Assembly (NCBI RefSeq): GCF_045810705.1
Contig: NZ_JBJMVI010000008.1
Span: forward strand, 39,142 to 103,141
Length of the DNA stretch: 64,000 nucleotides
Source of the DNA: Sphingomonas sp.
Lineage (GTDB): Bacteria; Pseudomonadota; Alphaproteobacteria; Sphingomonadales; Sphingomonadaceae
Direction: 5' to 3'
Shown here: positions 3,972 to 16,017 of the stretch, in pieces
Layout: each line of letters opens with the position of its first letter
How positions within the stretch are numbered: position 1 is the first letter of the stretch
Translations under genes and position numbers: made by a program
Notes under the pieces: generated by a model
What the model was told of the DNA's origin: nothing
What the model saw: only the letters and a program-made list of their open reading frames with translations
Database searches by the model: none

Positions 3972-3976
3972 CTCCC
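3959..3976 (+). repeat. Putative attL core (tRNA 3' end plus downstream bases) CTAAGCGGCACCACTCCC
   Basis: Aligns 15/18 (one gap, two mismatches) with 36094-36110. Confidence 0.6.
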
Positions 3977-4165: not shown

Positions 4166-5737
4166 TTAACGCGAAGCCTGGTTGAAGCCAAAGTATCGCC
4201 GTTGTTCATCCCATGGGAGCGGGATGTCGGCCGCCCTGAGGAGGCGCCGGCCCGTGATCGTTGCCGGCTGGCGACCTTCGATGATCGCAACAATGATATC
4301 CGGGGCTAGCCAGCTCACTCGCAGAAGCTGCCAGAGGTGCCGCTTACTGTAGCGCGAAACGATAGGATCGGGATCACTCGTGAGTGCACTTTGCTGCGCC
4401 AGCACGGCAAGCGTGATCAGCTTAACGAGCACCGGGTCGGCGTCCTCGGGCGCCGCGTCGCTGGGACGCAGAACCAGCTTAAGCTCGTTGCCTCGCCGAG
4501 CGAGATCGGCTGGAATGAGGATCTGGTTTTCGACGTCGTCACCGATGTTCACGACGATCTTTGACGATTTGAGCTGAACCCTGACATTGTTCTCAAGCAA
4601 CATCCTGCGCTGCTCCGGAACGCTGCACTGGTCCAAACCTATGGGCTCTTCGAAGGGGGAGCCCAGCTCGGCAGCGCGGCGGGTCAAGGCTGTCTCGACG
4701 CAGCGCAAAACAGCGCGGTCGATATCACCTGCCGGTATCCGCCAAGCGGGCTTCCGATCCTCAGCTGGCTTCAGTCGAGTGACATAGTAGCGATGCTGAC
4801 GAGTTCCCTTCGTCGTGAAGACCGGCGTCATCGGCCGACCATCTTCGTTCGTGATCAGGCCTGTGAGTAGGCTCGGCGTGCGGGTTCGTTTCCCATGCAG
4901 GCGTTCGCGCCGATTGGTCGCCAACAGCAGTTGGACCTGGTCCCAAACGCCGTCGTCGATGATGGCATCATGCTCGCCATCGAACAGTTCGTCGCGATGG
5001 CTCACTTTGCCGACGAAGAGCGGGTTCTGGAGCAGTTGGGCGAGAGACCCTCGGGTAAAGAAGACACCCCCGACGGATCGCCCATTCGCAAATGACCGAA
5101 CCTTCGTTCGAATGCCGACAGTGGCAAGCTCATCGGCGAGAGCACCGACCGAACCGAGTTCGAGGTACCTGCGAAAGATCAGCCGAACCGTCTCTGCCTC
5201 CGGCTCCTCGATCAGGAGCTTCCGGCTCTCCAGCCGATAGCCAATAGGAATCGGACCACCCATCCACATGCCTTTGCGCTTCGACGCCGCAACCTTGTCG
5301 CGGATCCGCTCGCTGGTGACCTCGCGCTCGAACTGCGCGAACGACAACAGCACATTCAGCGTCAGCCGACCCATGCTGGTTGTGGTGTTGAACGACTGTG
5401 TAACGCTGACAAACGAGGCGCCGGCTTTGTCTAGCACTTCAACTATACGAGCGAAGTCGGCGAGACTTCGGGTCAAGCGGTCGATCTTGTAGACGACGAT
5501 GACGTCCACCCTTCCGGCGGCTACGTCGGCAAGCAATTGCTGGAGCGCCGGCCTGGCCATGTTCCCGCCAGACCAGCCCCCATCGTCATAATGCTCGTTG
5601 ACCCGCTCCCAGCCTTCATGAGCCTGGCTGAGGATGTAGGCAGCACAAGCTTCACGCTGGGCATCGAGACTGTTGAATGCCTGCTCCAATCCCTCTTCCG
5701 TCGACTTCCGGGTGTAGATGGCGCAGCGCCGCTTCAT
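4166..5737 (-). CDS. Large serine recombinase (resolvase + recombinase domains)
   Basis: MKRRCAIYTRKS (catalytic Ser), YDDGGWSG, VVYKIDRLTRS, SFAQFERE; ATG at 5737 overlaps the DUF2924 stop (ATGA), so the ORF-track start at 5800 is probably too long. Confidence 0.95.
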   Translation of the reverse strand: MKRRCAIYTRKSTEEGLEQAFNSLDAQREACAAYILSQAHEGWERVNEHYDDGGWSGGNMARPALQQLLADVAAGRVDVIVVYKIDRLTRSLADFARIVEVLDKAGASFVSVTQSFNTTTSMGRLTLNVLLSFAQFEREVTSERIRDKVAASKRKGMWMGGPIPIGYRLESRKLLIEEPEAETVRLIFRRYLELGSVGALADELATVGIRTKVRSFANGRSVGGVFFTRGSLAQLLQNPLFVGKVSHRDELFDGEHDAIIDDGVWDQVQLLLATNRRERLHGKRTRTPSLLTGLITNEDGRPMTPVFTTKGTRQHRYYVTRLKPAEDRKPAWRIPAGDIDRAVLRCVETALTRRAAELGSPFEEPIGLDQCSVPEQRRMLLENNVRVQLKSSKIVVNIGDDVENQILIPADLARRGNELKLVLRPSDAAPEDADPVLVKLITLAVLAQQSALTSDPDPIVSRYSKRHLWQLLRVSWLAPDIIVAIIEGRQPATITGRRLLRAADIPLPWDEQRRYFGFNQASR

Positions 5738-6186
5738 TGCTCGGCCACTCGGCTGACCGATTTGCGCTTCTTTAGGCCGAAGAAGGTCGGTCCTGACCAA
5801 TGGGTGCCAGTGATGGCCGTCGCGACCTGCGTCAATGAGCTGAAGCGCCTCGCGTCATACTCGTAGCCATCATCGAGCACGAGCACATGGTGCACCCTGC
5901 CCTGCCATTGCCGGACGAGCCTCGTTCCGGACTTAAGCGATGGTCGCTTCGAGTTGATCAGCTCTTCGCCTCGCCGGAGCCGATCGGCGGCCCGCTCCAG
6001 CTCGCGTTTGATGTGGCTCGGCACATCGCCATGCACACGCGACTGAAGCTTCCAGGCAATGCCTCGTCGGAGCAGGTCCGGCCCGATATCGGGGGCCGGC
6101 TTGCGCCAGCACTCGCGCCATTTGGCGCGGAGCTGCGCCGGAGACATTCCGGGCAGCTCCGCCAGTTGCTGTTCGAGAGCACTCAT
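5734..6186 (-). CDS. DUF2924 family protein
   Basis: LRAKWRECW...LLRRGIAWKLQ...GTRLVRQWQGRVHHV...SLTQVATAITGTHWSGPTFFGL; usual position upstream of this recombinase type. Confidence 0.9.
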   Translation of the reverse strand: MSALEQQLAELPGMSPAQLRAKWRECWRKPAPDIGPDLLRRGIAWKLQSRVHGDVPSHIKRELERAADRLRRGEELINSKRPSLKSGTRLVRQWQGRVHHVLVLDDGYEYDARRFSSLTQVATAITGTHWSGPTFFGLKKRKSVSRVAEQ

Positions 6187-6416
6187 TCGGCCCTGGCCGC
6201 AGCTGGCGCCGCCTCGATCCGATAGGCTGTTTTGCCATCCGGCCGCTCCTCTTTGAGCAGGTTGCTAGTCTTCCGCACGCCCGTCAGGAAGGCGCGGCAG
6301 CTGTGCTCCTTCCAGCCGGTAGACTTCATGATCTCGACGAGGGTCGCGCCATTGCCACGGGAGAGCATCTTCTTGACGGTCGCGCTCTTGGAGAGTTTCT
6401 TTGTCTGCTTGGCCAT
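6183..6416 (-). CDS. DUF3489 family protein (small winged-helix-like)
   Basis: KSATVKKMLSRGNGATLVEIMKSTGWKEHSCRAFLTG...YRI; overlaps the DUF2924 start. Confidence 0.85.
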   Translation of the reverse strand: MAKQTKKLSKSATVKKMLSRGNGATLVEIMKSTGWKEHSCRAFLTGVRKTSNLLKEERPDGKTAYRIEAAPAAARAE

Positions 6417-6604
6417 TGTGGGTCTCCTTGCGCCAGCATGATGGCTGGCACTGACCCAAGCCGCGGACCTCGGCGGCGTATCGCGGCGTTACCGCTAGTC
6501 AGCGGCACATGTGACCAACGCTCCGTTGGGAAGGACAGTCAAGCGCCAAGAAGCAAAAGCCAGCGAAGACGACTTTCGGCGCTCAGGCCTTTTCCCGACC
6601 GGGC

Positions 6605-7984
6605 TTAGGACGACAGATCAGTAAAGCCCGGATTGAAGCCCCGCAGCTCCGTACTTGCCATCACCACTTCGCGCGAATTCATATCTCGCAACGTCAGGTC
6701 GAGGACGTCGAGCCCCGCGACACCATTGAGGCGGCGCAGGACTTCCGCGATGGCAAGGCCCGCCGCGACAGTCCCGACGAAAGGCGCGCCCACAGTTCGG
6801 GACGCCAACGTGACAAGGCCGCATTCATCGAAACCAGCTTCGCCGAGCCGTTCGTAGGCCGGAGCGTGTCGGGTTGAGGTAGCCGCAGCCTCCCCTTCGT
6901 CGCGCCAAATATCCCGCGCCGGACGGGATCCTGGGAAGGAATGCAGGCGCATGGCCAGATATTCGGTCGGGCCAGCGCCGAGACCGGCCTCGACGACGAG
7001 ATCGAAGCCCGCGCCTTCGAGCGCCGCCCTCGCCGCGGCATTATCGACGCCGCACAGCGCAACCCGCGGATCGTCGGGCTGAAGAACAATGTCGCCAGCG
7101 AAGCGGCGTTCAATCATCCGCGTCCTGAAGCCCCTGAGCTCCGCCCAAGCAGCCATTGCGCGGGTTTTGCGTTGGCCGATGAGCGCGTCATTGGTCAGCG
7201 GCGACGTACTGTCGTTCGAGGCCGCGAGGCTGTCGAAATCCTGGAGCGTCAATTCGACTTCCTCGGGTCGCGCGTAGGGAAGTAAACCTAGGGCCCAGAG
7301 ATAGGCCTGCCCGAGATGACCAAGGCCAATCAGCCAGAGGTGAGACGGCGCGACAAAGCCCCTGGGCCCCGGAGCCGAAACGTCCCAGTCCCGTACTTCT
7401 GGGCGCCACAGGTTCATGCCGACGCGGCGGCGCGCAGCCATGGGATTGCCGCGAAAGTTCTGGAAGATTTCGCTGACGCCGAGGGCTCCGGCCACCATCG
7501 CCGCAAGGACATCGCGGGGTTCGTCATCAAATGTTTTGTCCTCGTCGGCCGGAAAAACGCCAGCGCGCCAGCCGCCGTATGCCACCTTCAGTGCGAGCTC
7601 TGATAGGCCCTCCGGAGCCTCCCCCAGAATCAGCGCGGGCACTTCGCCCGACAAGGCCTCTGAGATGGATCCGCCGAGCGTCAACACCGCGCTGCCCACG
7701 GTCGCTCCGAGGCCCGGCAGCGACAAGAGCAACGGGACACCGAGATTGCCGACGACGCTGACACCGCCGAGCAACGCGCGCCGGGCGCAGTTAACGATCG
7801 TCAGCAGAGCCGCCTGGCCGGCAGGGGACGCGGCCTCAACTTCATCCACACTGACCGAAAGCCGGTACCTGCCGAACAGCGCATAAGCTTCATCAAGTGA
7901 GTGCACTTCACCTGTGTCGAGCGCCATTTTGACAACGCGGTGCAACGTATCCGCAGAAATCACTGAAGGCCGATTCATCGCCAC
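6605..7984 (-). CDS. Ubiquitin-activating E1-like (ThiF/MoeB fold) protein, BilD-like
   Basis: C-terminal adenylation domain LIGLGHLGQ...QDFD...SN...KT...CGVDN...EAGLG, a degenerate N-terminal ThiF-like half, and candidate catalytic Cys in FDECG. Confidence 0.88.
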   Translation of the reverse strand: MAMNRPSVISADTLHRVVKMALDTGEVHSLDEAYALFGRYRLSVSVDEVEAASPAGQAALLTIVNCARRALLGGVSVVGNLGVPLLLSLPGLGATVGSAVLTLGGSISEALSGEVPALILGEAPEGLSELALKVAYGGWRAGVFPADEDKTFDDEPRDVLAAMVAGALGVSEIFQNFRGNPMAARRRVGMNLWRPEVRDWDVSAPGPRGFVAPSHLWLIGLGHLGQAYLWALGLLPYARPEEVELTLQDFDSLAASNDSTSPLTNDALIGQRKTRAMAAWAELRGFRTRMIERRFAGDIVLQPDDPRVALCGVDNAAARAALEGAGFDLVVEAGLGAGPTEYLAMRLHSFPGSRPARDIWRDEGEAAATSTRHAPAYERLGEAGFDECGLVTLASRTVGAPFVGTVAAGLAIAEVLRRLNGVAGLDVLDLTLRDMNSREVVMASTELRGFNPGFTDLSS

Positions 7985-8463
7985 GTTCCCGTCCTCACAA
8001 TCGAGCGAGCCTGCCAGCCGCTAAGGTCCACCCATCGATGGGAGCCAAGATATTGATAGACGCCAAGATGGTGGCGCCAGATCGGTCGCTCCGCGAGCCG
8101 CGGCACGATCAGCGCCAAGTGTCCGGGCTTTGCGATCATCGGATTGGTGCGATCGGAAGAGCTTTGCCGAGCGCGGCCGTTATTGCCGTGAAGATGGGCA
8201 TCGGCCACGACCTTGAGGCCGGTGGTTCGGCAATGCGCCCAAAGCGTCTCGAATGAATCCGCTTCGAGGATGCAGATGCCCGATGAATAGGCGTTTGCGT
8301 CGAGGTCATCGTAGAAGATGATGCTGCTGACCTCGCGATCGGTGCCGTCGATCGCACCAAGGAGGAACGCGCCGCTCTCGTGCCGGCCTTCGCTCCGCTC
8401 GTGAAGCTCGTCCAGAAGATCGAACCAGCGGGCGCGTCCGATGTGCAGCCGGGGCGCGCTCAC
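7975..8463 (-). CDS. JAB/JAMM metallo-deubiquitinase, BilC-like
   Basis: HESGAFLLG (catalytic Glu region) and AHLHGNNGRARQSSSD (HxH...SxxD JAMM motif). Confidence 0.88.
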   Translation of the reverse strand: MSAPRLHIGRARWFDLLDELHERSEGRHESGAFLLGAIDGTDREVSSIIFYDDLDANAYSSGICILEADSFETLWAHCRTTGLKVVADAHLHGNNGRARQSSSDRTNPMIAKPGHLALIVPRLAERPIWRHHLGVYQYLGSHRWVDLSGWQARSIVRTGTWR

Positions 8464-8951
8464 GACCGCTTCCCGTGATAAGAACTCGAGTTGAGCAGTT
8501 CGTGGACGGCTTCAAGGTAAAGGACGATGCCTTTCGCCGGGTCCCAGACCTGCGCAGGATGATCGGTCAGCCATTGCGGGTGGCCTTCGAAGCTCTGACG
8601 ATCGCACGGAAGGTACAGGCACAGCCCGCTTTTCCATTCGATCCGGAAGACGGCCATGAAGCGGTCGCTCCCATGGGGCCAAAGATTGTGGGCAAGGGGC
8701 GCGTTGGCCGCCGTATCCCAGAGGCAGGCGGTCACAGCCTGGCTCGGATAGCCCGAGCATTCGAACCGCAACGCATAGGCCCTCGGGCTATCGCCGCGCT
8801 CGGCGGCGGACACTTCGATCAATACATGCGGCCAATTGACCGACAATAGCTTCCAGCGGCCGCGATGCTCGCCGAGCACGAACTCGGGGCCTTCGAGGTC
8901 CTCGCGGAGCGCCCGCCGATCCGGGCGCTCCAAATCCTCAACTTCGGCCAT
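8460..8951 (-). CDS. Prokaryotic E2-like ubiquitin-conjugating protein, BilB-like
   Basis: YALRFECSGYP...LWD...WP...LYLPCDR (candidate active Cys116)...HPQW...WDP; lies between the Ubl and JAB genes. Confidence 0.8.
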   Translation of the reverse strand: MAEVEDLERPDRRALREDLEGPEFVLGEHRGRWKLLSVNWPHVLIEVSAAERGDSPRAYALRFECSGYPSQAVTACLWDTAANAPLAHNLWPHGSDRFMAVFRIEWKSGLCLYLPCDRQSFEGHPQWLTDHPAQVWDPAKGIVLYLEAVHELLNSSSYHGKRS

Positions 8952-8953
8952 GA

Positions 8954-9442
8954 TCAGCCCTCGACCCGCTTCAGGGGCACGAGGCTGAGCTCGATCCTGC
9001 AGTCGACCGACTTCAGGCTGCCGATCATCGTATCCGGGCTGGGGCGCTCCTTCGTCCCCGAAATCTGGAGCACGTGCTCGGTCGCGTCGGCGGCGCTCAT
9101 CGCAATTTTATCGACGAACCAGGCTTTCACCTCAGCAATGGTCGCCACCGGCGAAAACGGATGCTGCTTGCCGTCGCCGGCAAAATCGACAGTGACATGG
9201 ATCTTCTTGCAGCGATGCAGGCACAGGCGCTGCTTGTTGCCGACGCCCTGGCTTTGAAGTGGATGCTTGTCGTCGAGCGGATCCTCGCGGCCCTCGGCAA
9301 AGACCGAGGTATCGGACAAGTTGGCAAAGCCGAGCTCGACGGCCTTGGCACGGACATCCTTGGTGCCGGCCTTCTCGTCGAACTCGGCAAGCTCGACGCG
9401 CGGGTCACCTTCAAACTGGAGGAAGAGGGTAACTTTCGTCAT
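8954..9442 (-). CDS. Tandem ubiquitin-like protein (two beta-grasp domains, C-terminal Gly), BilA/ISG15-like
   Basis: 162 aa from ATG 9442 (MTKVTLFLQF...) with a second repeat starting KKIHVTVDF; ends VPLKRVEG-stop. Confidence 0.85.
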   Translation of the reverse strand: MTKVTLFLQFEGDPRVELAEFDEKAGTKDVRAKAVELGFANLSDTSVFAEGREDPLDDKHPLQSQGVGNKQRLCLHRCKKIHVTVDFAGDGKQHPFSPVATIAEVKAWFVDKIAMSAADATEHVLQISGTKERPSPDTMIGSLKSVDCRIELSLVPLKRVEG

Positions 9443-9493
9443 GGGATTGTTTCCTTGAAACCGGGCGGCCGAAAAATGACCGTCTGACAAGGC

Positions 9494-9519
9494 CAACCCG
9501 GCGAATCCCAAAACCGGAA
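9494..9519 (-). promoter_or_regulatory. Putative ECF-type promoter upstream of the Ubl operon: TTCCGGTTTTGGGA-TTCGCC-GGGTTG
   Basis: Same motif and spacing as 14344-14369; lies in the 101-bp gap between the helicase and Ubl genes. Confidence 0.6.
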
Positions 9520-9543
9520 ATGGCTTGCGCAAAAAAGGCAGCC

Positions 9544-12500
9544 TTAGCCGCCGAGCGCGATCCCGTGGGCGGGACAGGCGAAATAGAAAGCGCAATTCGG
9601 GCAGTTGCGATCGCTGGGCTTGGGCGGGAAGAGGCCCGCACCGATGCTCGCGAGCTCCGCCTCGATCGCGGCCCGCGCCTTGGCGGGGACGTCAGCCTTT
9701 ATGAGGTCCGGCTTCGCTTGCCCGTCGACCAGGGACACGTGCTCGAAGCTGATCGACAATCCAGGATGATCCAGCCCGACCATGGCCAGGAGGGCTCCAT
9801 AGCGCGCCTTCGCACTTTCCTTGTCCTTCGTAAGGCGCGCCGTCTTCAAGCGCTGGATGACGAGGCCGCCGTCCCGTTCAGCGATATGATCGGCTCTGGC
9901 CGTGATCGTGGTACCGCCGACCTCCATCTTTCGGTCGACAGGATAAACCTTGCCGGACGTCAGCTCTATCGCCCGCTCCACCATCTGCTCGGCCGACGCT
10001 CGATAAACCGTCGCCAGCGGACCGTCGGTAAGGCCGAGGCTCTCCCAATGTCCGTCGAACTCCTTTCGCCAGCCCGCCTGGCGAGCTTCGGCGTCGGGGA
10101 TGGTTCGCGCCCAGGACAGTGTTTTTCGAAGGGTGGATTGAAGCCCCAGATAGGGCGACTTGGGCCCGAACCCGCCGATCCCAAGGGCGAACTCATAATA
10201 ATATTGCCGCGGACAATGCTGGTAGGATTCGACGGCCCTGATCGAGATCTCCGCCGGCAAGGGATGGAGCGGCGCCAGCGGAAGATATTCGGGGGGTCTC
10301 GGCCCTTCCTCGACCCAATTCGCGGCGGCATTGAGGGGTCGATCGAGGTGCCCGGCAATTGGCTCGAGCAGGCGCGACGGGTTGGCCGTCGACCAGCCAC
10401 CGTAGCGAAGCGGCCGCGACAGATAGAGACTGTCCTTGGCTCGCGACAGAGCGACGAAGAACAGGCCCTCCTCCTCAGCCTCGCGCCCCATCAAGGGATC
10501 ATTGGGCACGAGCCCGTCCGGCGGCGGACACGGGTTGTGGCGGTTCTGCGCGGGAAAGTGGCGAGTCGTCAGGGTCGAGAGATGGACCGACGGAAATTCG
10601 AGGCCCTTGCTCGCGTGGACCGTCATCAGCCGGACGGCATCGATCCCCGCGGCAGCGGCAGGCATGCGTCTGAACTCCTTTTCCTCGTCGAGAAGCTCAA
10701 GGCGCCGGACATGGGCGAGGAACGCACTCTTGGGGTCCTTTTTGGGCGGCGCCCGAAAATCGAACGCGACCTGCAACAATTGGTAGATGGCGAGACGTGC
10801 CTGCTGGGCCGAGACGCTGTCCTCAAAGAGCAGGCCAAGCCGCGCCCGTCCCCTGATGAACAGGCTCTCGAGGATGAGACCATGGGGCGAAGTCATGAAG
10901 GCCGATCCGGCGAGGTCGTTCGCAAGCCTGCCAAGGCCCGCACGGCCCGCATCGGACAGGTCCGGCACGTCATCGAGCCGCCGAAGCGCCTTGATCATCG
11001 AGACCTTCTCGTTGCGCCGCCAAGTGCAGAGCGCTGCAATATCGGCGAGGGAGACGTAATAAGGCTCTTCCTGCGCGATCCGAAGGATGCCCAGGCCTTC
11101 CCACTCGCTCGCGACGGAGAGCAAGGAGAGATAGTCTCGCACTTCGGCGCGCTCGAAGAAGTCGCCGAAATAGAGGCTGGGGATGCCCGAGCGTTCGAGA
11201 TGCGCGCCAAGCTTGGCAAGGATCGTATGCGAGCGCGCCAGCACCACGTGATTGCTGAACTTGTCACCGACCTTGACGTGGGCGCGGATGGTTTCGGCAA
11301 TGCCTTCGGCTTCCGCTTCGAACGTCGCAGCTACGGAATAATGGACCGACCCCCGCTCTTCGCCTCGATGGGCTTCGAGATGGGCCATGGCCGGGAGGAC
11401 GCCCTTCCCCATTTCAGCGCCGAAGCTCGAGAAGGTCCGGACGATGCGCCCGCCTGACCGGTAGTTGACGCCAAGGTCGGTGAAGGTCGCGCCCGTGAAG
11501 TCCTGTCCGAACTCGGTCATGTTCAGCGGCGATGCACCGCGGAACCGGTAGATCGATTGGCGGGCATCGCCCACCACCCACGGGCCCTGCCCTGGCGTAA
11601 CCAGCTCCTTCAGGAACAAGGCGCTGGCGCGGTTCATGTCCTGGTATTCATCGACGAGGACATGCTTCGTCTTTGCGCGAACCGCCGCGGCGACCCCGGC
11701 ATGCTCAGCCAGCAGCTCATGCGCCCGCATGATGAGGTCGCCGAAATCGGCGTCGCCGCGTTCCCTCAGTGCGGCCTGGTAGACCGCATAGATACGGGCG
11801 ACCTCGGCTGCCTTGGCCGCTTCTACGTCGCGGCTGGGATGTTTCGTCATTGCCGCAGCGAAGCGAGCATAATCGTCCGGCGTTGCGAGCTGATCCTTGG
11901 CGCGCGAGATTGCATTCAACACGGCCTTCAACGGCTGCAGCGGTTCGCGAAGGTCGAGATAATATTCAAGGCTGAGGGACGGGAGCAGCTCTTCAAGCAG
12001 GAACAAGGAATCCGACCGGTCGAGCGGCTGAAGGTTCGGCTTGATGCCAATGACCTCGCCGTATTTACGAAGCAGCTCCAGGCCGAAGGCGTGGAACGTG
12101 CCGCTCCAGATGGTCGGCGCCAGGTCCCCAATCTCGCTCCGCAACCGGCGGCTGAGATCGACCGACGATTCATTCGAGTAGGTAAGGGCCACGATCGACG
12201 CCGGATTCTCGTCATTATCGACAAGCCATTTGATCCGCGCGACGAGGGTCCTGGTCTTGCCCGTGCCGGGGCCGGCTGTCACCTGGTGCGGCCCGAAGCC
12301 TGCTTCAGCGGCCTGGAGCTGCGTCTTGTCGGGCGGCGGCGGTGATGTGGATTGAGGTTTCGCATGGTCCTCGTCCGGCAGGAGCACAGCATCGGCCAGT
12401 TGCTGCAGGATCAGGTCGAGCGGAAGCCCGAGCCTCGCTGCGAGCTCGGACGGAGATTCCGTCGCTGCCGCCCACCAGGCCTTTAGCTTCGGCCTTGGCA

Positions 12501-12921
12501 GTAAGAACTCGCGCGCGAACAGATTGGCCTGCGCTTCAGCCCGTTCCTTCGGGCTGTAGGCGTCGATTTCGCCGACCACCGACAGTTCGGGTTCGGCCGG
12601 TGTCGCAAAATCAACATCGACCGAGCTGCAGCCTCCATGCGTGTCATGGAGCCGATGATGGCCGAATTCGTGAGCGATCGTGAAGCGCCGCGTTTCGAGC
12701 GCCAGGCCCATTGAATAAAGGATTCGGTTATCGTCGCGATCGTAGAGGCCGTCAGCTCCCTCCAGCAGGATATCGTCGGCCGGAAGCGGCATCAGCCGAG
12801 TGCCGGTCGCCTCCCGCGCGCGCTCGACCAGGTCGTCAGCGGCAGGAAGCTCGCCAGTCTCGGCAAACAGTTCCTCGTGCCAGGCGCGCGCTAGGCCCCT
12901 AATCTCGCTCCACATGCTCAT
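9544..12921 (-). CDS. ImmA/IrrE metallopeptidase - UvrD/PcrA SF1 helicase - AddB/RecB-like Fe-S PD-(D/E)xK domain fusion (1125 aa)
   Basis: RRFTIAHEFGH and EAQANLFAREFLLP (Peptidase M78); AGPGTGKT, GTFHAFG, VDEYQD, VGDARQSIYRFRGA, NYRS, MTVHASKGLEF, FFVALSRA (helicase motifs); HCPRQYY...CPNC...ACP (4 Cys); ATG 12921 overlaps the upstream stop. Confidence 0.9.
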   Translation of the reverse strand: MSMWSEIRGLARAWHEELFAETGELPAADDLVERAREATGTRLMPLPADDILLEGADGLYDRDDNRILYSMGLALETRRFTIAHEFGHHRLHDTHGGCSSVDVDFATPAEPELSVVGEIDAYSPKERAEAQANLFAREFLLPRPKLKAWWAAATESPSELAARLGLPLDLILQQLADAVLLPDEDHAKPQSTSPPPPDKTQLQAAEAGFGPHQVTAGPGTGKTRTLVARIKWLVDNDENPASIVALTYSNESSVDLSRRLRSEIGDLAPTIWSGTFHAFGLELLRKYGEVIGIKPNLQPLDRSDSLFLLEELLPSLSLEYYLDLREPLQPLKAVLNAISRAKDQLATPDDYARFAAAMTKHPSRDVEAAKAAEVARIYAVYQAALRERGDADFGDLIMRAHELLAEHAGVAAAVRAKTKHVLVDEYQDMNRASALFLKELVTPGQGPWVVGDARQSIYRFRGASPLNMTEFGQDFTGATFTDLGVNYRSGGRIVRTFSSFGAEMGKGVLPAMAHLEAHRGEERGSVHYSVAATFEAEAEGIAETIRAHVKVGDKFSNHVVLARSHTILAKLGAHLERSGIPSLYFGDFFERAEVRDYLSLLSVASEWEGLGILRIAQEEPYYVSLADIAALCTWRRNEKVSMIKALRRLDDVPDLSDAGRAGLGRLANDLAGSAFMTSPHGLILESLFIRGRARLGLLFEDSVSAQQARLAIYQLLQVAFDFRAPPKKDPKSAFLAHVRRLELLDEEKEFRRMPAAAAGIDAVRLMTVHASKGLEFPSVHLSTLTTRHFPAQNRHNPCPPPDGLVPNDPLMGREAEEEGLFFVALSRAKDSLYLSRPLRYGGWSTANPSRLLEPIAGHLDRPLNAAANWVEEGPRPPEYLPLAPLHPLPAEISIRAVESYQHCPRQYYYEFALGIGGFGPKSPYLGLQSTLRKTLSWARTIPDAEARQAGWRKEFDGHWESLGLTDGPLATVYRASAEQMVERAIELTSGKVYPVDRKMEVGGTTITARADHIAERDGGLVIQRLKTARLTKDKESAKARYGALLAMVGLDHPGLSISFEHVSLVDGQAKPDLIKADVPAKARAAIEAELASIGAGLFPPKPSDRNCPNCAFYFACPAHGIALGG

Positions 12922-13538
12922 TGCTCGGCATGCGAGCCCTTGGCCCAGAGAGCCTCCCGCCACTCGGCCTTCTGCGTTTCATCGATGGCGGCCGAAGCGA
13001 GGGCCTCCTCGAAGGTCTCCGTTTGGCGAACGGCCTTCTTGCCCGATTTCATCCGTGCGTTGGCAACGGTCGCCAATGGCGGTCCGCGTAGATGATGACG
13101 CACTACTGCGAGCGTGATGCCAAGGACATCACGCAATCGATCGAGGCACAATTGCGGAATGCTCTCAAAATCGATTTTCCTCCGGAACAGCTTCATCACG
13201 AAGGGCTCATCGAGGCCAATTCGAACGGCTACGTCGGCGTCGTTGAGGCCGGCGGATCGAGCAATCTGCGTCAGCGTCCCTTGCTTCGAATCTTCCTGAT
13301 GCAGGAGATTGAGCGCATGACTTACGGCCTCCGCAGCAAAGCGCTCGGCGTCGACGGACTGAGTGATCGGAAGCTCGATCTGCTCGGCCCACGTTGCAAA
13401 ATACTCGGCAAGCTCGCTCGCATGCTCCGGAAAAAGCTCGCACCAGCGCGAGAGCGCGGCATAGCTCGGCTCGTCCTCTTCGATCGCGATATGATCGAAA
13501 AGCTCGTCCAGGTGGATGTGGCGGGGTTTAACGGTCAT
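12918..13538 (-). CDS. Protein with helical N-terminal domain and XRE/Cro-like HTH (candidate anti-sigma or repressor)
   Basis: TLTQIARSAGLNDADVAVRIGLDEPFVMKLFRR resembles an XRE HTH; ATGA-coupled to both neighbours. Confidence 0.6.
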   Translation of the reverse strand: MTVKPRHIHLDELFDHIAIEEDEPSYAALSRWCELFPEHASELAEYFATWAEQIELPITQSVDAERFAAEAVSHALNLLHQEDSKQGTLTQIARSAGLNDADVAVRIGLDEPFVMKLFRRKIDFESIPQLCLDRLRDVLGITLAVVRHHLRGPPLATVANARMKSGKKAVRQTETFEEALASAAIDETQKAEWREALWAKGSHAEQ

Positions 13539-14428
13539 GACCTGTCTCCAAGGGCTTCTTGCATCTGCTTGCGGGCAGTGCCGATCCAGGTCCGGATTTG
13601 ACGGTCTGAGACATTGAAAAAGTCACACAAACACGGCTGTCCCTTCGGTCCGGGAAGATACGGCCAACCCCATAATTCGTGAAGGATGAACGCGACGCGG
13701 TGACGCCGGTCCTTCACGGCTGCCAGAATTTCACGACGTTTAGGGTGCTTCTCGCCGGCCTCAATCAGCTCCGCGAGAGGGTCGGGGCGATCGTCAGGGA
13801 CAAGCGAGGCAGCATCGATGGCATCGCCATCGTCGTTGATGATGGTCCGGAGTGGAGCGTGGAACTTGTTTTGACCCTTGCGTCGGCGAACTGCCCTTAA
13901 TGTTTCGCGCTCGACGATGCTCTTGAAGCTGATCTCGAGAATCTCAGTCTGCCGCGTTACCTCGCTTGAGGTGATCCGTCTGTCGATCTCATCCTTAACC
14001 TCGTCGCAGATGATCCCGAGGTCAGTCTCGCTGAATCCCTGCGCGGTGTCTTCGACGATCTTCGCGGCCCGCTCCATCAGAGTGAAGAGCACTCGGCCGA
14101 ACAGGTTGCGATCGATGACGCGCAAGAATTTCAAAAGGTAAACGCGGGTCTCATCCTTGATACCACCATGCCTCGGGGCGTGGACTGCCCACTCTTCGGG
14201 CGGCAGCGCCAGCATGGCGCCGATCTCTGCCTCGACATCGGTCCGGCGCGTGTATGGCTCCCCTGTTACGGTCGAACAGGTAAGCGGGCGCACGGTCCGC
14301 TTCGTACCGCACGAAGGTCCCTGTTTGTCTGTCACGGGATGCTCAACCCCCGCCTTCCCGAAACCGGAAGAATCTTTTTTTTCGATTGGCTCGTATTCGG
14401 CGAATGCTCTCGAAGGCACCTGAGCCAT
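13535..14428 (-). CDS. ECF/sigma70-family-like sigma factor (true start possibly GTG 14335)
   Basis: Region 2-like FKSIVERETLRAVRRRK; region 4-like RHRVAFILHELWG...FFNVSDRQIRTWIGTARKQMQEAL. Confidence 0.7.
   Translation of the reverse strand: MAQVPSRAFAEYEPIEKKDSSGFGKAGVEHPVTDKQGPSCGTKRTVRPLTCSTVTGEPYTRRTDVEAEIGAMLALPPEEWAVHAPRHGGIKDETRVYLLKFLRVIDRNLFGRVLFTLMERAAKIVEDTAQGFSETDLGIICDEVKDEIDRRITSSEVTRQTEILEISFKSIVERETLRAVRRRKGQNKFHAPLRTIINDDGDAIDAASLVPDDRPDPLAELIEAGEKHPKRREILAAVKDRRHRVAFILHELWGWPYLPGPKGQPCLCDFFNVSDRQIRTWIGTARKQMQEALGDRS
14344..14369 (-). promoter_or_regulatory. Putative autoregulatory ECF-type promoter: TTCCGGTTTCGGGA-AGGCGG-GGGTTG
   Basis: 20 of 26 positions fit the pattern shared with 9494-9519 (TTCCGGTTTYGGGA-N6-GGGTTG); ends 8 nt upstream of in-frame GTG 14335. 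Confidence 0.55.
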
Positions 14429-14697
14429 CGCGAACTCGGCTACGCGCCCGCACGACAGAACGATCGCAGCCGCTCGGCAGCCGCATACGCCACTCCCCCC
14501 AACTAAACCGAGCAGCTCTAAGTGACTCTGCATCAGCCGCGGAGTCAACGGCTGTGGCCCGCGACGAACTCGCTCGTTTTACATAACATCCGTTGCCGCG
14601 GCCTCTTAGCCCGGGGTGGCCGACAACTGCAGTTTCTGCTAGTTTCCGGACTGCTCGGTGAGTTGTGACGGCCCTCGTGTCGTCAGGGGGGTGTTCC

Positions 14698-16017
14698 ATG
14701 GCCGGGTTCGCACGCCAATTCCCGTTCGTCATCGTGGTTGTGTTCGCGATCCTCTTCGCCGCACCGGCGCTGAGCGCGCCCAGCGTCGTACCTTCTCCGC
14801 GCGTCACCGCCGCGGTGGTTGTCCGTGCTCAGCCGACCGCGAGTTCCGAAGCCCTCGCACGGATGCGGCCGGGCGAGTTTCTGCCGCTTCAGCAGGAAAT
14901 CTCCGGCTGGTTTCAGGTCCTGCTGCCCGACGGACGGACCGGCTACGTCAGCAAGGCATGGGCCGATATCGTTCCAGAAGCCGTCACCCCGGCACCACCG
15001 GTCTGGAAAATCCACTTTGTGGACGTCGGCACGGGACTGGCGACCTTTGTCGAAGGGCCCGACTTCGCACTCATCTACGATGGCGGCAGCAATGACGATT
15101 ATGCGCTCGGGTCGCGCAACCGGCTCCTCGCCTATCTTCACCGGGTACGGCCGGATCTCCAGGTCATTGATCACATTATTCTCAGTCACCCGCACCGCGA
15201 TCATGTCGAGCTGCTGCCCGACCTGTTCGACGGCTATCAGGTCCGCAACGTGTGGGATTCGGGGCGCATCTACGACATCTGCGGTTACCGCTCCTTTCTG
15301 CAGAAGATCAGCACCGAGCCCGGCGTCGTCTATCACGACGCTGCAAGCGAGGCGGGAGTCCACGCCGTGAGTCTGCCGGCGAAAGCCTGCTATGGTCACA
15401 CTGCGCCGCTCAGCGTGCACATTGCGGATGGCACGCCGATTACGCGGGGTCTGAAGGTGCCTCTCGGCGCCGGCGCTTCAATGACTTTTCTGACCGCCGA
15501 TGCCGGAAGCTATCCCGATCCGAACGAGAACAGCGTCGTCGTCAGGCTCGATCTCGGCGCCGACCGGTTCCTGTTCATGGGCGATGCTGAAGCCTCGCCG
15601 GATCGAGAGCCGCCATCAATTCCTCCACGCCCGAACTTTGCCGAGGGTCAGCTGCTGACCTGCTGCGCCGCAGATATCCAGGCGGATTTCATGGTTGTCG
15701 GGCATCACGGCAGCATGAGTTCATCGCGCGCGACGTTTCTGAATGCGGTCGGGGCAAAAATCTTTGTGATCTCGTCGGGACCGAAGGATTACGGGCGAGC
15801 CGGGCATCCCGTCACGCTTCCAGACCCTGAGGTCGTGCACGAGGTGGAGAGCCGCGGCACCCTTTGGCGGACCGATTTTGACGATCCAGATTGTCGGACC
15901 GACGCCGCCAAGATCGGTACCGACGCCGACAATAATGTTGGAGGCTGCGATAACATTCTCGTTCGGGTTCCCGCCAGCGGACCGCCGCTCGTCAATTACG
16001 AGCGAATCCACGACTGA
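14698..16017 (+). CDS. Secreted SH3b + ComEC/Rec2-like metallo-beta-lactamase-fold hydrolase
   Basis: Hydrophobic signal peptide; SH3b GWFQVLLPDGRTGYVSKAW; MBL motifs SHPHRDH, FMGDA, GHHGS, ISSG. Confidence 0.85.
   Translation: MAGFARQFPFVIVVVFAILFAAPALSAPSVVPSPRVTAAVVVRAQPTASSEALARMRPGEFLPLQQEISGWFQVLLPDGRTGYVSKAWADIVPEAVTPAPPVWKIHFVDVGTGLATFVEGPDFALIYDGGSNDDYALGSRNRLLAYLHRVRPDLQVIDHIILSHPHRDHVELLPDLFDGYQVRNVWDSGRIYDICGYRSFLQKISTEPGVVYHDAASEAGVHAVSLPAKACYGHTAPLSVHIADGTPITRGLKVPLGAGASMTFLTADAGSYPDPNENSVVVRLDLGADRFLFMGDAEASPDREPPSIPPRPNFAEGQLLTCCAADIQADFMVVGHHGSMSSSRATFLNAVGAKIFVISSGPKDYGRAGHPVTLPDPEVVHEVESRGTLWRTDFDDPDCRTDAAKIGTDADNNVGGCDNILVRVPASGPPLVNYERIHD

What the first reader, a model, noticed from the sequence alone, without database searches (positions are those of the whole stretch)
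6605..14428. Candidate regulated defence system: ECF-like sigma > XRE-HTH > IrrE-UvrD fusion > Bil-like Ubl/E2/JAB/E1 in one co-directional unit
Seen: seven consecutive minus-strand genes. Sigma/HTH and HTH/helicase overlap by ATGA, E2/JAB and JAB/E1 overlap, Ubl/E2 are 2 nt apart, and the only real gap is 101 bp before the Ubl gene. Established: Ubl+E2+JAMM+E1 is the architecture of the Bil (bacterial ISG15-like) antiphage system, and HExxH M78 peptidases cleave XRE-type partners (ImmA/ImmR, IrrE/DdrO, CapP/CapH), with IrrE and CapP activated by ssDNA. Inference: the helicase exposes or senses ss or damaged DNA, the fused peptidase cuts the HTH protein (a putative anti-sigma), and the freed sigma switches on the ubiquitin-like operon. 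I do not know of a described Bil locus controlled by a dedicated sigma and protease-helicase, but could not search.
Basis: partly seen in the sequence, partly recalled or inferred. Interest (0 to 1): 0.9.

Follow-up and report, generated by a model that had tools for sequence, protein, structure and literature searches.

The report
Sigma-factor switch controlling a Bil defence operon
A known bacterial ubiquitin-like antiviral system (BilABCD) is here joined to three upstream genes (its own sigma factor, a small DNA-binding-type protein, and a protease fused to a DNA helicase), and the same seven-gene cassette recurs in many bacterial phyla, pointing to an undescribed way of switching this immune system on.

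Summary
Corrections: the sigma gene starts at GTG 14335, not 14428. The large protein also has a C-terminal Fe-S, Cas4/AddB-like nuclease-type domain. The locus is probably two transcription units.

BilABCD is unambiguous (PADLOC E 1e-45 to 1e-165). P7 is an ECF-type sigma by family profile and predicted fold. P6 has an XRE/CapH/DdrO-like HTH core.

The cassette is not a chance adjacency. In 54 dereplicated genomes where both flanks are visible, 49 carry all seven genes, across at least eight phyla. Homologous trios also precede the unrelated Bub-type Ubl operon.

One bipartite promoter (TTCCGGTT-N13-GGGTTG) occurs exactly twice in the 64-kb window, before the sigma gene (leaderless) and before bilA. 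This promoter pair recurs and co-varies across loci.

Best model: the helicase module senses abnormal DNA, the fused M78 peptidase cleaves P6, and the freed sigma drives its own operon and bilABCD. The sigma-to-Bil link is supported. The trigger, the cleavage and the anti-sigma role are inferred. I found no description of this module in the searchable literature. It is a new variant of a known kind.

The parts
14344..14369 (-). P_P7: sigma-dependent promoter of the trio operon. The -35 is TTCCGGTT (14362-14369) and the -10 region is GGGTTG(AG) (14344-14349). The GTG start codon lies 34 nt from the first T of the -35, so the mRNA is predicted to be leaderless.
   Evidence: The pattern TTCCGGTTTN{10,16}GGGTTG has 2 hits in the 64 kb, with 0.00 expected. 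A homologous motif lies before P7 in 33 of 51 dereplicated loci (2.1 expected), and the -35-to-start-codon distance has a mode of 34 nt.
13535..14335 (-). P7: ECF-type sigma factor, 266 aa, GTG start. It has an N-terminal extension of about 60 aa with a conserved PLT motif, then sigma2-like and sigma4 domains.
   Evidence: The family profile matches solved ECF sigmas: 6in7_B 1.3e-10, 1or7 1.3e-6, SigE, CnrH. 29 of 53 members hit Sigma70_r4_2 and 2 hit Sigma70_ECF. Foldseek hits for the AF2 model are all sigma factors, with ECF sigmas first at probability 1.0 and 177-200 aligned columns. Start codon.
12918..13538 (-). P6: 206-aa partner protein. It has an N-terminal three-helix domain (about aa 10-54), an XRE-type HTH (about 89-150), a low-confidence linker carrying a conserved KAxxKP motif (about 155-172), and a C-terminal helical hairpin (about 176-204). 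It is the proposed cleavable inhibitor, either an anti-sigma or a repressor.
   Evidence: AF2 model pLDDT 76. Foldseek matches XRE HTH domains, including CapH-NTD 7t5u (TM 0.78, 2.0 A) and DdrO 6rnz (TM 0.74). Sequence-level HTH hits are only weak. It lies directly between P7 and the helicase in 59 of 63 loci. Distant relatives sit in the same context.
9544..12921 (-). Large three-domain protein, 1125 aa: M78 (ImmA/IrrE/CapP-type) peptidase, UvrD-type SF1 helicase, and a PD-(D/E)XK/Cas4-AddB-like Fe-S domain.
   Evidence: Pfam: Peptidase_M78 5.9e-13, UvrD-helicase 4.9e-58, UvrD_C 1.8e-29, PDDEXK_1 3.1e-12. There are hundreds of full-length relatives with the same architecture.
12397..12747 (-). 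M78 peptidase domain (aa 59-175) with HEFGH at aa 84-88.
   Evidence: H84, E85 and H88 are invariant in 23 sequences and at least 90% conserved in 67. UvrD begins at aa 199, which leaves no room for the GAF-like domain of CapP/IrrE.
10417..12327 (-). UvrD/SF1 helicase core (aa 199-835).
   Evidence: Walker A AGPGTGKT, (D)EYQD, and motifs III and V/VI are conserved across 67 family members. PADLOC GajB-type and NCBIfam PcrA/UvrD hits fall well below the equivalog cut-offs.
9571..10248 (-). Cas4/AddB-like nuclease-type domain (aa 892-1117) with four invariant cysteines (C903; C1107-x2-C1110-x5-C1116).
   Evidence: The four Cys are conserved 67/67 and D1011 57/67. The motif-III acidic position is Arg in 54/67, so the domain may be catalytically inactive. 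No PDB sequence match was available to confirm the register.
9531..9552 (-). Intrinsic-terminator-like hairpin GGCGGC-TAAG-GCTGCC followed by TTTTTT, straddling the helicase stop codon.
   Evidence: It is the top-ranked site in the terminator scan. T-runs follow the helicase stop in many related loci.
9494..9519 (-). P_bilA: second copy of the sigma-dependent promoter. The -35 is TTCCGGTT (9512-9519) and the -10 region is GGGTTG(G) (9494-9499).
   Evidence: 2 hits in the window, 0.00 expected. The motif is present before bilA in 36 of 51 dereplicated loci (1.2 expected). The -10 variant agrees with that of P_P7 within loci, 19 of 31 against 9.1 by permutation.
9443..9487 (-). Predicted bilA 5' leader (about 43 nt), with a short GC-rich palindrome (CGGTC-ATTTTTC-GGCCG) near +1 and the SD sequence AAGGA.
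   Evidence: Sequence. A GC-rich palindrome recurs at this position in related loci, but it is not supported as an RNA structure.
8954..9442 (-). bilA: ubiquitin-like protein, 162 aa, ending in Gly.
   Evidence: PADLOC BilA 8.5e-45, aligned 1-162 of 162. C-terminal G162 is at least 93% conserved.
8460..8951 (-). bilB: E2-like protein, 163 aa.
   Evidence: PADLOC BilB 1.3e-61; Pfam DUF7665/BilB-like 3.6e-61. Y-x-P-C116-D-R is conserved.
7975..8463 (-). bilC: JAMM/JAB deubiquitinase-like protein, 162 aa.
   Evidence: PADLOC BilC 5.5e-59. E29, H90, H92, S101 and D104 are conserved.
6605..7978 (-). bilD: E1-like adenylating enzyme, 457 aa.
   Evidence: PADLOC BilD 5.2e-165. The GxGxxG loop (218-223) and C386 are conserved.

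Best explanation
This is a seven-gene antiviral module organised as two operons, both read from the same dedicated promoter type.

Operon 1 is predicted to be leaderless and autoregulated. It encodes an ECF-type sigma factor (P7), an XRE-HTH partner protein (P6), and a sensor-protease made of an M78 (CapP/IrrE-type) peptidase fused to a UvrD helicase and an Fe-S, Cas4/AddB-like DNA-end-binding domain. Operon 2 is bilABCD, the ubiquitin-like conjugation system known to tag phage tail proteins.

Proposed sequence of events:
1. At rest, P6 keeps the sigma-dependent promoters off, most likely by sequestering the sigma (anti-sigma role).
2. The helicase/Fe-S module loads on abnormal DNA, such as free ends or ssDNA from phage replication or from damage.
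3. This activates the fused peptidase in cis. The helicase-nuclease module takes the place of the GAF-type sensor domain of CapP/IrrE.
4. The peptidase cleaves P6, probably at the conserved disordered linker or the first helix of its C-terminal domain.
5. The freed sigma transcribes its own operon (positive feedback) and bilABCD.

Shown here: the identities of all parts, the conserved seven-gene linkage, and the paired, co-varying promoters. Inferred: steps 1-4.
For: Parts: PADLOC BilA-D, with catalytic signatures conserved. M78, UvrD and PDDEXK domains, with HExxH, Walker A and four Fe-S cysteines conserved in 67 sequences. P7 is an ECF sigma by profile against PDB sequences, by per-member Pfam scans and by fold. 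P6 has an XRE/CapH/DdrO-like HTH fold.

Linkage: tblastn and iterative HMMs find P7-P6-Hel-BilABCD colinear in Alpha- and Gammaproteobacteria, Planctomycetota, Acidobacteriota, Chloroflexota, Nitrospirota, Latescibacterota, Verrucomicrobiota and Myxococcota. P7+P6 lie upstream in 59 of 63 loci, Bil lies downstream in 51 of 57, and 49 of 54 show the complete cassette. All P7 and P6 relatives looked up lie in this context.

Sigma-to-Bil link: the bipartite motif occurs exactly twice in the window, at the two predicted promoters, with 0.00 expected. Across 51 loci it occurs 36 and 33 times against 1.2 and 2.1 expected, with a fixed 34-nt distance to the P7 start codon. The -10 variants co-vary within loci.

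Regulator role: the same genomic position before other Bil operons is occupied by stand-alone HTH + ImmA/IrrE pairs (Chambers et al.). Homologous trios also precede Bub-type operons.

Precedent: CapP is activated by ssDNA and cleaves CapH (Lau et al.).
Against: - No direct evidence exists for a P6-sigma interaction, for cleavage, or for the DNA trigger.
- P6 has a bona fide HTH, so it could be a DNA-binding repressor rather than an anti-sigma.
- The window's P7 and P6 themselves hit no curated family. The P7 model has only moderate confidence (pLDDT 63), and no member hit Sigma70_r2 among the listed families.
- About 30% of loci lack a recognisable motif under my simple pattern.
- Cupriavidus EM10 keeps P7, P6, both promoters and Bil without the helicase. 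So the helicase is not strictly required to maintain the rest.
- The near-exclusive association with Ubl systems, unlike the promiscuous CapH/CapP, hints that the helicase may do more than regulate.
Confidence: 0.58

Rival explanations
1. The architecture is the same, but P6 is a CapH-like DNA-binding repressor rather than an anti-sigma. It binds an operator at P_bilA, for example the GC-rich palindrome at about +1, and possibly elsewhere. The M78 domain cleaves it. The sigma merely provides promoter specificity and feedback.
For: The P6 core superposes on the CapH and DdrO HTH domains. A short GC-rich palindrome recurs just downstream of the -10 of P_bilA. CapH/CapP work exactly this way. Lau et al. 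saw a sigma next to capH/capP in 24 CBASS systems.
Against: The two promoters of a locus share no sequence beyond the -35 and -10, and P_P7 has no leader to hold an operator. The HTH is central rather than N-terminal and is flanked by an extra conserved N-terminal domain. The gene order, sigma followed by a translationally coupled partner, is the classic sigma/anti-sigma layout. The palindrome sequence is not conserved between lineages.
Confidence: 0.25
2. The helicase protein is primarily an effector or working partner of the Ubl pathway, not just a sensor. It might attack or track phage DNA, be a Ubl-conjugation target, or recruit Bil. The sigma and HTH protein would then regulate both arms.
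For: The family is tied almost exclusively to Ubl systems, Bil or Bub, unlike generic Cap regulators. UvrD-type helicases are effectors in Gabija and other systems (PADLOC GajB hits). AddAB-like nuclease/helicase pairs and separate exonuclease genes recur beside other Ubl operons.
Against: The nuclease motif-III acidic residue is replaced by Arg in 54 of 67 members while the Fe-S cysteines are invariant, which argues for DNA binding rather than cutting. The invariant fused M78 active site needs a substrate, and the adjacent CapH-like protein is the obvious one. Bil systems function as four genes when cloned (Hor et al.).
Confidence: 0.12
3. P7 is not a sigma factor but a LuxR/GerE-type HTH activator, as PGAP labels some homologues. 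It would work with the housekeeping sigma, and the conserved motif would be an activator-binding site.
For: Homologues are annotated as 'LuxR family transcriptional regulator' or 'DNA-binding response regulator'. 4 of 53 members hit GerE. The sigma2 region has no listed Pfam hit, and the model confidence is moderate.
Against: The profile alignment to ECF sigmas runs through the end of sigma2, the linker and sigma4. The top 50 fold matches are all sigma factors, with near-full-length alignments. The motif is bipartite with -35/-10-like spacing and a fixed 34-nt distance to a leaderless start codon. No sigma70-like promoter lies on this strand.
Confidence: 0.05

Closest known systems
BilABCD (bacterial ISG15-like) anti-phage system (Millman et al. 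2022; Hor et al. 2024, read as 10.1101/2023.09.04.556158)
   Same: The four downstream genes match in order, size, HMM hits and catalytic signatures. BilA ends in Gly, as reported for all BilA homologues.
   Different: The published system is a four-gene operon with no dedicated regulators described. Here it has its own ECF-type promoter and a conserved three-gene upstream operon.
CapH + CapP (and IrrE/DdrO, ImmA/ImmR): an HTH repressor cleaved by an ssDNA-activated M78 peptidase (Lau et al. 2022, 10.1101/2022.04.27.489752)
   Same: An M78 HExxH peptidase is encoded next to an XRE-fold protein, upstream of an immune operon. CapH/CapP pairs occupy the same position before other Bil and Bub operons. 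The P6 fold matches CapH-NTD and DdrO.
   Different: The peptidase lacks the GAF-like domain and is fused to a UvrD helicase plus an Fe-S nuclease-like domain. The HTH protein is about twice the size of CapH, with an extra N-terminal domain and a central HTH. The genes are co-directional with the target operon rather than divergent. A dedicated sigma and sigma-type promoters are integral. The association is restricted to Ubl systems.
CalpL-CalpT-CalpS (type III CRISPR-associated protease, anti-sigma and ECF sigma cascade; from my own knowledge, plus the title and abstract of 10.1101/2023.06.23.546230)
   Same: The logic matches the proposal here: an immune signal activates a protease that cleaves an inhibitor and releases an ECF-family sigma.
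   Different: The protease is different (SAVED-Lon versus M78), the input is different (cyclic oligoadenylate versus presumed DNA), the proteins are unrelated, and the CalpS regulon is unknown. Here the target promoter and operon (Bil) can be read from the sequence.
DdvS/DdvA ECF sigma/anti-sigma control of a CRISPR-Cas system in Myxococcus (PMC6061681, abstract)
   Same: A dedicated ECF sigma drives an immune operon.
   Different: That system uses a membrane-bound anti-sigma and an envelope-type input, with no protease-helicase and no Ubl system.
AddAB/RecBCD-type helicase-nucleases and Cas4 (Fe-S PD-(D/E)XK nucleases; from my own knowledge)
   Same: An SF1 UvrD-like motor is followed by a RecB-family domain with the C...CX2CX5C iron-sulfur signature.
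   Different: It is a single polypeptide with an N-terminal peptidase. The (D/E)xK acidic residue appears to be lost. NCBIfam scores are far below the AddA/RecB/PcrA equivalog cut-offs.
CapK + CapS and CapW/BrxR controllers of Bil/Bub operons (PMC13373217; PMC11601596)
   Same: These are alternative DNA-damage-responsive modules found upstream of Bil and Bub operons.
   Different: The proteins and mechanisms are unrelated (kinase/STAS; WYL). None involves a sigma factor or a helicase.

Membership tests
BilABCD (Bil) system | Four genes in the order Ubl, E2, JAB/DUB, E1, matching the family models | tested here: met
   PADLOC BilA 8.5e-45, BilB 1.3e-61, BilC 5.5e-59 and BilD 5.2e-165, all near full-length. 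Gene order.
BilABCD (Bil) system | Ubl (BilA) ends in a conserved C-terminal glycine | tested here: met
   The window BilA ends ...KRVEG. G162 is at least 93% conserved in 58 sequences. The requirement is stated by Hor et al..
BilABCD (Bil) system | BilA consists of two fused ubiquitin-like beta-grasp domains | not tested
   Only the full-length match to the BilA model (1-162 of 162) and Pfam BilA_UBL_2 hits on relatives are available. No structure was predicted for BilA.
BilABCD (Bil) system | Catalytic residues of the JAMM DUB, the E2 Cys, and the E1 nucleotide loop and Cys | tested here: met
   BilC has E29, H90-x-H92, S101 and D104. BilB has the YxPC116DR motif. BilD has G218xGxxG223 and C386. 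All are at least 93% conserved.
BilABCD (Bil) system | Protects against phage by conjugating the Ubl to phage proteins | not testable with these tools
   This needs phage challenge and conjugation assays.
CapH/CapP-type (ImmR/ImmA, DdrO/IrrE) regulator pair | M78 Zn-peptidase with HExxH | tested here: met
   Pfam Peptidase_M78 5.9e-13. H84, E85 and H88 are invariant.
CapH/CapP-type (ImmR/ImmA, DdrO/IrrE) regulator pair | The peptidase carries a C-terminal GAF-like regulatory domain and is a stand-alone protein of about 200-300 aa | tested here: not met
   M78 ends at about aa 175-195 and UvrD begins at aa 199. The protein is 1125 aa.
CapH/CapP-type (ImmR/ImmA, DdrO/IrrE) regulator pair | The partner is a small XRE-HTH repressor with an N-terminal HTH and a C-terminal oligomerisation domain | tested here: inconclusive
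   The XRE fold is present, with TM 0.74-0.78 to CapH and DdrO. However, it is central, preceded by an extra domain, and the protein is 206 aa. Oligomerisation and DNA binding are unknown.
CapH/CapP-type (ImmR/ImmA, DdrO/IrrE) regulator pair | Encoded upstream of, and divergent from, the regulated operon, sharing its promoter region | tested here: not met
   The genes are co-directional, with separate promoter copies. The divergent rule comes from Chambers et al. and Lau et al..
CapH/CapP-type (ImmR/ImmA, DdrO/IrrE) regulator pair | The peptidase cleaves the HTH partner when activated by ssDNA or DNA damage | not testable with these tools
   This needs in vitro or in vivo cleavage assays.
ECF (group 4) sigma factors | Two-domain sigma2 + sigma4 architecture without sigma3 or sigma1.1 | tested here: met
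   The profile matches ECF sigmas from the end of sigma2 through sigma4. Foldseek gives ECF sigmas first, with near full-length alignments. Caveats: the model pLDDT is 63 and there is an extra N-terminal segment of about 60 aa.
ECF (group 4) sigma factors | Passes the curated Pfam Sigma70_r2 / Sigma70_r4(_2) models | tested here: inconclusive
   The window protein has no Pfam hit at E<=0.1. 29 of 53 relatives hit Sigma70_r4_2 (best 2e-12). None is listed for Sigma70_r2.
ECF (group 4) sigma factors | Autoregulated promoter with a conserved -35/-10, shared with the target genes | tested here: met
   This is sequence inference only, with no TSS data.
ECF (group 4) sigma factors | Co-transcribed cognate anti-sigma factor | tested here: inconclusive
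   P6 is in the right place and is translationally coupled, but it has no recognisable anti-sigma domain.
UvrD/SF1 helicases | Walker A, DExx and SF1 motifs III-VI | tested here: met
   Pfam UvrD-helicase 4.9e-58 and UvrD_C 1.8e-29. The motifs are conserved. It is not an orthologue of PcrA, UvrD or Rep, scoring 218-270 bits against cut-offs of 911-1144.
Cas4/AddB-type Fe-S PD-(D/E)XK nucleases | Four cysteines (C...CX2CX5C) that coordinate an Fe-S cluster | tested here: met
   C903, C1107, C1110 and C1116 are conserved 67/67. The cluster itself was not tested.
Cas4/AddB-type Fe-S PD-(D/E)XK nucleases | Catalytic D...(D/E)xK triad | tested here: inconclusive
   D1011 is present in 57 of 67. The position expected for the (D/E) is Arg in 54 of 67, and the K position is K or R. 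The register rests on my own motif reading, and no PDB sequence match was found to confirm it.
Gabija (GajB) | UvrD-like GajB paired with the GajA OLD-family nuclease | tested here: not met
   The GajB models hit only the UvrD core. No GajA-like gene lies in the locus.

The most novel reading that the evidence does not exclude
This would be a fourth, mechanistically distinct class of immune-operon controller. A DNA-end- or ssDNA-sensing helicase with a catalytically dead Fe-S nuclease domain is physically fused to a CapP-like protease. That protease destroys an HTH-type anti-sigma and releases a dedicated, leaderless, autoregulated ECF sigma. The sigma's only targets are its own operon and a ubiquitin-like conjugation operon. 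The module is ancient, spans at least eight phyla, and has been exchanged between the evolutionarily distinct Bil and Bub systems. That implies a specific functional coupling between sensing of DNA processing and protein ubiquitin-like tagging in bacterial immunity.
Probability: 0.4. Interest if true: 0.82.

Novelty: new variant of a known kind. Interest (0 to 1): 0.72.

Why it matters
Bil and Bub are the bacterial counterparts of eukaryotic ubiquitin/ISG15 immunity. How they are switched on during infection is largely open. [quoted passage not shown]

This locus shows that a large share of Bil operons come with a dedicated sigma factor, a CapH-like protein and a protease-helicase-nuclease fusion. 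That share is about 16 of 38 on plasmids, and nearly all relatives of this helicase in genomes. Some Bub operons carry the same trio.

The locus gives a directly testable circuit with a readable promoter pair and a defined candidate substrate. It also gives a candidate sensor whose input (DNA ends or ssDNA) can be assayed in vitro. It may explain why heterologous four-gene constructs need artificial promoters. It also suggests that the ssDNA-activated M78 switch has been hard-wired to an ssDNA-generating motor.

Tried and rejected
- Direct Pfam, NCBIfam and PADLOC scans of the window's P6 and P7 gave nothing. Family alignments from related loci were needed.
- A sequence search of the nuclease domain against PDB gave no hits. 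The claim that the catalytic residue is lost therefore rests on motif reading only.
- Rfam search of 6000-15500 found nothing relevant.
- I tested the hypothesis that the bilA leader forms a conserved RNA hairpin sequestering the SD. RNAalifold on a MAFFT alignment found no consensus structure. Alignment-free z-scores were weak (mean -0.6), and the sense strand was not more stable than the antisense (14 of 41). I rejected it as unsupported. The short GC palindrome near +1 remains unexplained.
- I looked for a shared P6 operator at both promoters. No common sequence beyond the -35 and -10 was found.
- My first bipartite regular expression was too narrow and undercounted promoters. It was replaced.
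- I asked whether the trio is a general-purpose regulator of other effectors. The loci lacking Bil turned out to have Bub genes or JAB+E1 nearby (L073, L079, L077), to be fragments (L034), or to have unrelated neighbours (L042, L074).
- A viral-contig scan with the M78 alignment found no relatives.
- A megablast of the island against plasmids gave only weak recombinase hits, so the organism was not identified.
- Gabija membership was rejected because there is no GajA.

Full report
OBSERVATION

The window carries seven consecutive minus-strand ORFs between 6605 and about 14335. I checked the junctions base by base.
- The P7 stop and P6 start overlap as ATGA (13535-13538).
- The P6 stop and helicase start overlap as ATGA (12918-12921). 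The helicase N-terminus MSMWSEIR matches its homologues.
- A 101-bp gap (9443-9543) precedes the Ubl gene.
- Two nucleotides separate the BilA stop from the BilB start.
- BilB/BilC overlap as GTGA, and BilC/BilD overlap as ATGA.

Three corrections are developed below. The sigma gene begins at GTG 14335, not ATG 14428. The large protein has a third domain. The locus is probably two transcription units.

WHAT THE PARTS ARE

The four downstream proteins match the PADLOC BilA, BilB, BilC and BilD models essentially end to end (E 8.5e-45, 1.3e-61, 5.5e-59, 5.2e-165). Their catalytic signatures are conserved across 56-58 relatives:
- BilA ends in Gly.
- BilB has YxPC116DR.
- BilC has the JAMM set E29, H90xH92, S101, D104.
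- BilD has GxGxxG and C386.

The 1125-aa protein combines three domains: Peptidase_M78 (aa 59-175), a UvrD/SF1 helicase (199-835), and a PD-(D/E)XK/Cas4-like domain (892-1117). Across 67 family members the following are conserved:
- the HExxH motif;
- the helicase motifs;
- four cysteines arranged C...CX2CX5C, all 67/67. From my own knowledge this is the Cas4/AddB iron-sulfur signature.

The acidic residue expected in the (D/E)xK motif is Arg in 54 of 67 members. The nuclease may therefore be inactive and serve in DNA-end binding. That reading rests on motif inspection only, because no PDB sequence match was available to fix the register.

UvrD begins 24 residues after the M78 domain ends. There is no room for the GAF-like regulatory domain that CapP and IrrE carry.

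The two small upstream proteins hit nothing in Pfam, NCBIfam or PADLOC on their own.

For P7, a 53-sequence family alignment (A2) gave three lines of evidence:
- A profile search against PDB sequences matched ECF sigma factors: 6in7_B 1.3e-10, E. coli sigmaE 1.3e-6, M. tuberculosis SigE, and CnrH. The matches run from the end of sigma2 through sigma4.
- 29 of 53 members individually hit Sigma70_r4_2, and two hit Sigma70_ECF.
- For an AlphaFold2 model (pLDDT 63), the listed top 50 PDB fold matches were all sigma factors. ECF sigmas came first, with near full-length alignments.

P7 is therefore an ECF-type sigma, with an extra conserved N-terminal segment of about 60 aa.

For P6, the AlphaFold2 model (pLDDT 76) shows four regions:
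- an N-terminal three-helix domain;
- a confident central XRE-type HTH;
- a low-confidence linker carrying the conserved motif KAxxKP;
- a C-terminal helical hairpin.

The HTH superposes on the 434 repressor, SinR and C-proteins. Notably it also superposes on the two known M78-peptidase substrates, CapH (7t5u, TM 0.78, 2.0 A) and DdrO (6rnz, TM 0.74). Sequence-level HTH signals are weak.

THE SEVEN GENES ARE ONE CONSERVED SYSTEM

P7 relatives are rare in the word-indexed search (9 clusters). Every contig long enough showed P7-P6-helicase, and Bil too where the sequence extended far enough.

The helicase family is large, and its listed full-length members share the three-domain architecture. 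I scanned one genome per species with an alignment of the M78 domain, which returned 80 loci. tblastn and iterative HMM searches showed P7, P6, Hel and BilA-D colinear in nearly all of them, even at 30-35% helicase identity.

After dereplication:
- 59 of 63 loci with upstream room have P7+P6.
- 51 of 57 with downstream room have all four Bil genes.
- 49 of 54 with both sides visible have the complete cassette.

The hosts include Alpha- and Gammaproteobacteria, Planctomycetota, Acidobacteriota, Chloroflexota, Nitrospirota, Latescibacterota, Verrucomicrobiota and Myxococcota (record titles).

The six loci without Bil downstream resolve as follows:
- two have Bub-type genes adjacent (L073, L079);
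- one has a divergent JAB+ThiF pair (L077);
- one is a fragment (L034);
- two have unrelated neighbours (L042, L074).

The most distant P6 relatives (17-20% identity) are again in the same context. The P7 family comprises 568 clusters at E<=1e-3 among 1.84 billion representatives, and the listed members are mostly 250-290 aa. No viral contig carries the module.

THE TRIO IS A PORTABLE MODULE FOR UBL SYSTEMS

On plasmids, helicase relatives at about 32% identity in Acinetobacter and Agrobacterium are preceded by true P7 and P6 homologues. They are followed not by Bil but by multiubiquitin, ThiF and DUF6527 genes, which is a Bub-type operon.

Looking from the Bil side, the 38 plasmids with a BilD-like gene divide as follows:
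- about 16 have the trio;
- one has P7+P6 without the helicase (Cupriavidus EM10);
- about 10 have a stand-alone or fused HTH + ImmA/IrrE (CapH/CapP-type) in the same position, three of them with an additional exonuclease-domain gene;
- seven have nothing or a disrupted upstream region;
- four were not inspected.

The Paraburkholderia caffeinilytica Bil operon has the CapH/CapP-type pair. From memory, that operon is one of the experimentally tested ones. Exchange of alternative modules at one position argues that the trio is a regulatory or sensor module.

THE SIGMA-TO-BIL LINK

The helicase-bilA gaps of diverse loci contain a conserved bipartite element. It consists of (A/C)TTTCCGGTT, then about 13-16 nt, then CGGTTGA, CTTGAA, CGATTA or CGACTT. 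The same element lies upstream of P7.

In the window, the pattern TTCCGGTTTN{10,16}GGGTTG occurs exactly twice in 64 kb. The sites are 9494-9519 and 14344-14369, both on the minus strand, with 0.00 expected from shuffles.

Among 51 dereplicated loci the motif is present before bilA in 36 (1.2 expected), before P7 in 33 (2.1 expected), and at both sites in 26.

The distance from the -35 to the first in-frame P7 start codon has a sharp mode at 34 nt, which is also the window's value (14369 to 14335). This places the start codon at the expected transcription start, so the sigma mRNA is predicted to be leaderless. It also fixes the gene start at GTG 14335.

Within a locus, the two promoters share their lineage-specific -10 variant. 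The agreement is 19 of 31 against 9.1 by permutation, and several mismatches are artefacts of my site picking. They share nothing else.

An autoregulated promoter duplicated in front of a target operon is the classic ECF arrangement (my own knowledge).

A terminator-like hairpin plus T6 straddles the helicase stop codon, just upstream of the P_bilA -35. The trio and bilABCD are therefore probably separate operons driven by the same sigma.

MECHANISM

I propose the following. P6 holds the circuit off. The helicase/Fe-S module engages abnormal DNA. The fused M78 peptidase is thereby activated and cleaves P6. The sigma then drives its own operon and bilABCD.

The analogy is CapH/CapP, where ssDNA activates CapP and CapP cleaves CapH in the first helix of its C-terminal domain (Lau et al.). 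Here an ssDNA-producing motor replaces the GAF sensor domain.

Whether P6 acts as an anti-sigma or as a CapH-like repressor is open.
- For anti-sigma: the sigma-partner gene order with translational coupling, the extra N-terminal domain, and the lack of any shared operator.
- For repressor: the bona fide HTH, and a recurrent GC palindrome at about +1 of bilA.

The near-exclusive tie to Ubl systems leaves room for a more direct role of the helicase in the pathway. None of the activation steps is shown. All are inference.

COMPARISON WITH WHAT IS KNOWN, AND NOVELTY

- Hor et al. describe Bil as a four-gene operon.
- Chambers et al. found divergent CapH/CapP at 15% of Type II Bil operons.
- Lau et al. 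note in one sentence that 24 CBASS systems encode a sigma70-family sigma beside capH/capP.
- Searches combining Bil, DUF6527, ubiquitin-like, UvrD, M78, ImmA and sigma factor found no description of this module.

The library excludes most subscription-only papers, so prior mention elsewhere cannot be ruled out.

I classify this as a new variant of a known kind. It is a known effector system (Bil) and a known switch principle (an M78 peptidase cutting an XRE-type partner). They are combined with a dedicated ECF sigma and a fused helicase/Fe-S sensor into a conserved circuit that has not been described.

CONTEXT

The cassette lies in an island of about 14 kb next to a tRNA-Thr gene (3896-3971). 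On one side are a large serine recombinase, DUF2924 and DUF3489. On the other are an MBL-SH3 protein and a Tle1-like phospholipase. A 94%-identical copy of the cassette sits in a different genomic context in L002, consistent with mobility.

Noticed in passing
window 9443-9493 (minus strand); related loci L008-L085, helicase-bilA gaps: A short GC-rich palindrome or hairpin (window: CGGTC-ATTTTTC-GGCCG) recurs right at the predicted +1 of the bilA transcript. In many Alphaproteobacteria it is nested in an outer inverted repeat. The 5' arm of that repeat lies between the -10 and +1, and the 3' arm overlaps the SD (for example CCTCTTGC...GCAAGAGG). It is not supported as an RNA structure, and its function is unknown. 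Possibilities are an operator, an mRNA 5' stabiliser, or an anti-SD element active only in read-through transcripts.
   Followed up: partly
window 3896-6416 and 14665-18242: The island context is tRNA-Thr, a large serine recombinase (4166-5800), DUF2924 and DUF3489 on one side. On the other side are an MBL-fold + SH3 protein (14665-16017), a Tle1-like phospholipase (16017-17132) and a 363-aa predicted membrane protein. A Tle1-like gene and a serine recombinase also flank the 94%-identical cassette in L002, but in a different arrangement.
   Followed up: partly
window 27838-36000: A second large serine recombinase (27838-29649) lies in a lower-GC stretch (0.55-0.59) together with a ParB-N6/N4 DNA methylase fusion (34413-35741). 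This is probably another integrated element.
   Followed up: no
L090:12973-17342 and L094:9517-15464: An AddAB-like pair (a PD-(D/E)XK nuclease family protein followed by a UvrD-helicase protein) lies immediately downstream of a Bub operon (Agrobacterium pTi) and of a Bil-type operon (R. anhuiense). This is a second recurrent helicase/nuclease association with Ubl systems.
   Followed up: no
L094:4071-6354 and L096:3658-5963: A divergent three-gene set (HTH, ImmA/IrrE peptidase, exonuclease-domain protein) lies upstream of Bil-type operons. It is a CapH/CapP pair with a separate DNA-processing enzyme, paralleling the fused helicase found here.
   Followed up: partly
L091 (Cupriavidus sp. EM10 plasmid) 3644-9359: P7 and P6 homologues and both promoter copies are present with BilABCD, but the helicase gene is absent and an unrelated opposite-strand gene sits in its place. 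This is either a decayed variant or a helicase-independent one.
   Followed up: partly
L097:13031-13984: A single 317-aa protein carries both the BilA_UBL_2 and BilB-like domains. It is an apparent Ubl-E2 fusion, and it lies within an otherwise standard seven-gene cassette.
   Followed up: no
window 14140-14335 (P7 aa 1-65): P7 has an N-terminal extension of about 60 aa before sigma2, with an invariant P17-L18-T19 and conserved R30, D33 and E35. It is modelled with low confidence. It may be a docking or regulatory segment.
   Followed up: no
L093 (Xanthomonas euvesicatoria plasmid) 1724-9356; L090:5552-6409: Public annotation labels the P7 homologues as 'LuxR family transcriptional regulator' or 'DNA-binding response regulator', and the helicase only as 'UvrD-helicase domain-containing protein'. 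The module is therefore invisible in current annotation.
   Followed up: yes
window 42928-42935: There is a third exact TTCCGGTT octamer, but it lacks the -10 half of the motif. This is consistent with chance (1.9 expected).
   Followed up: yes
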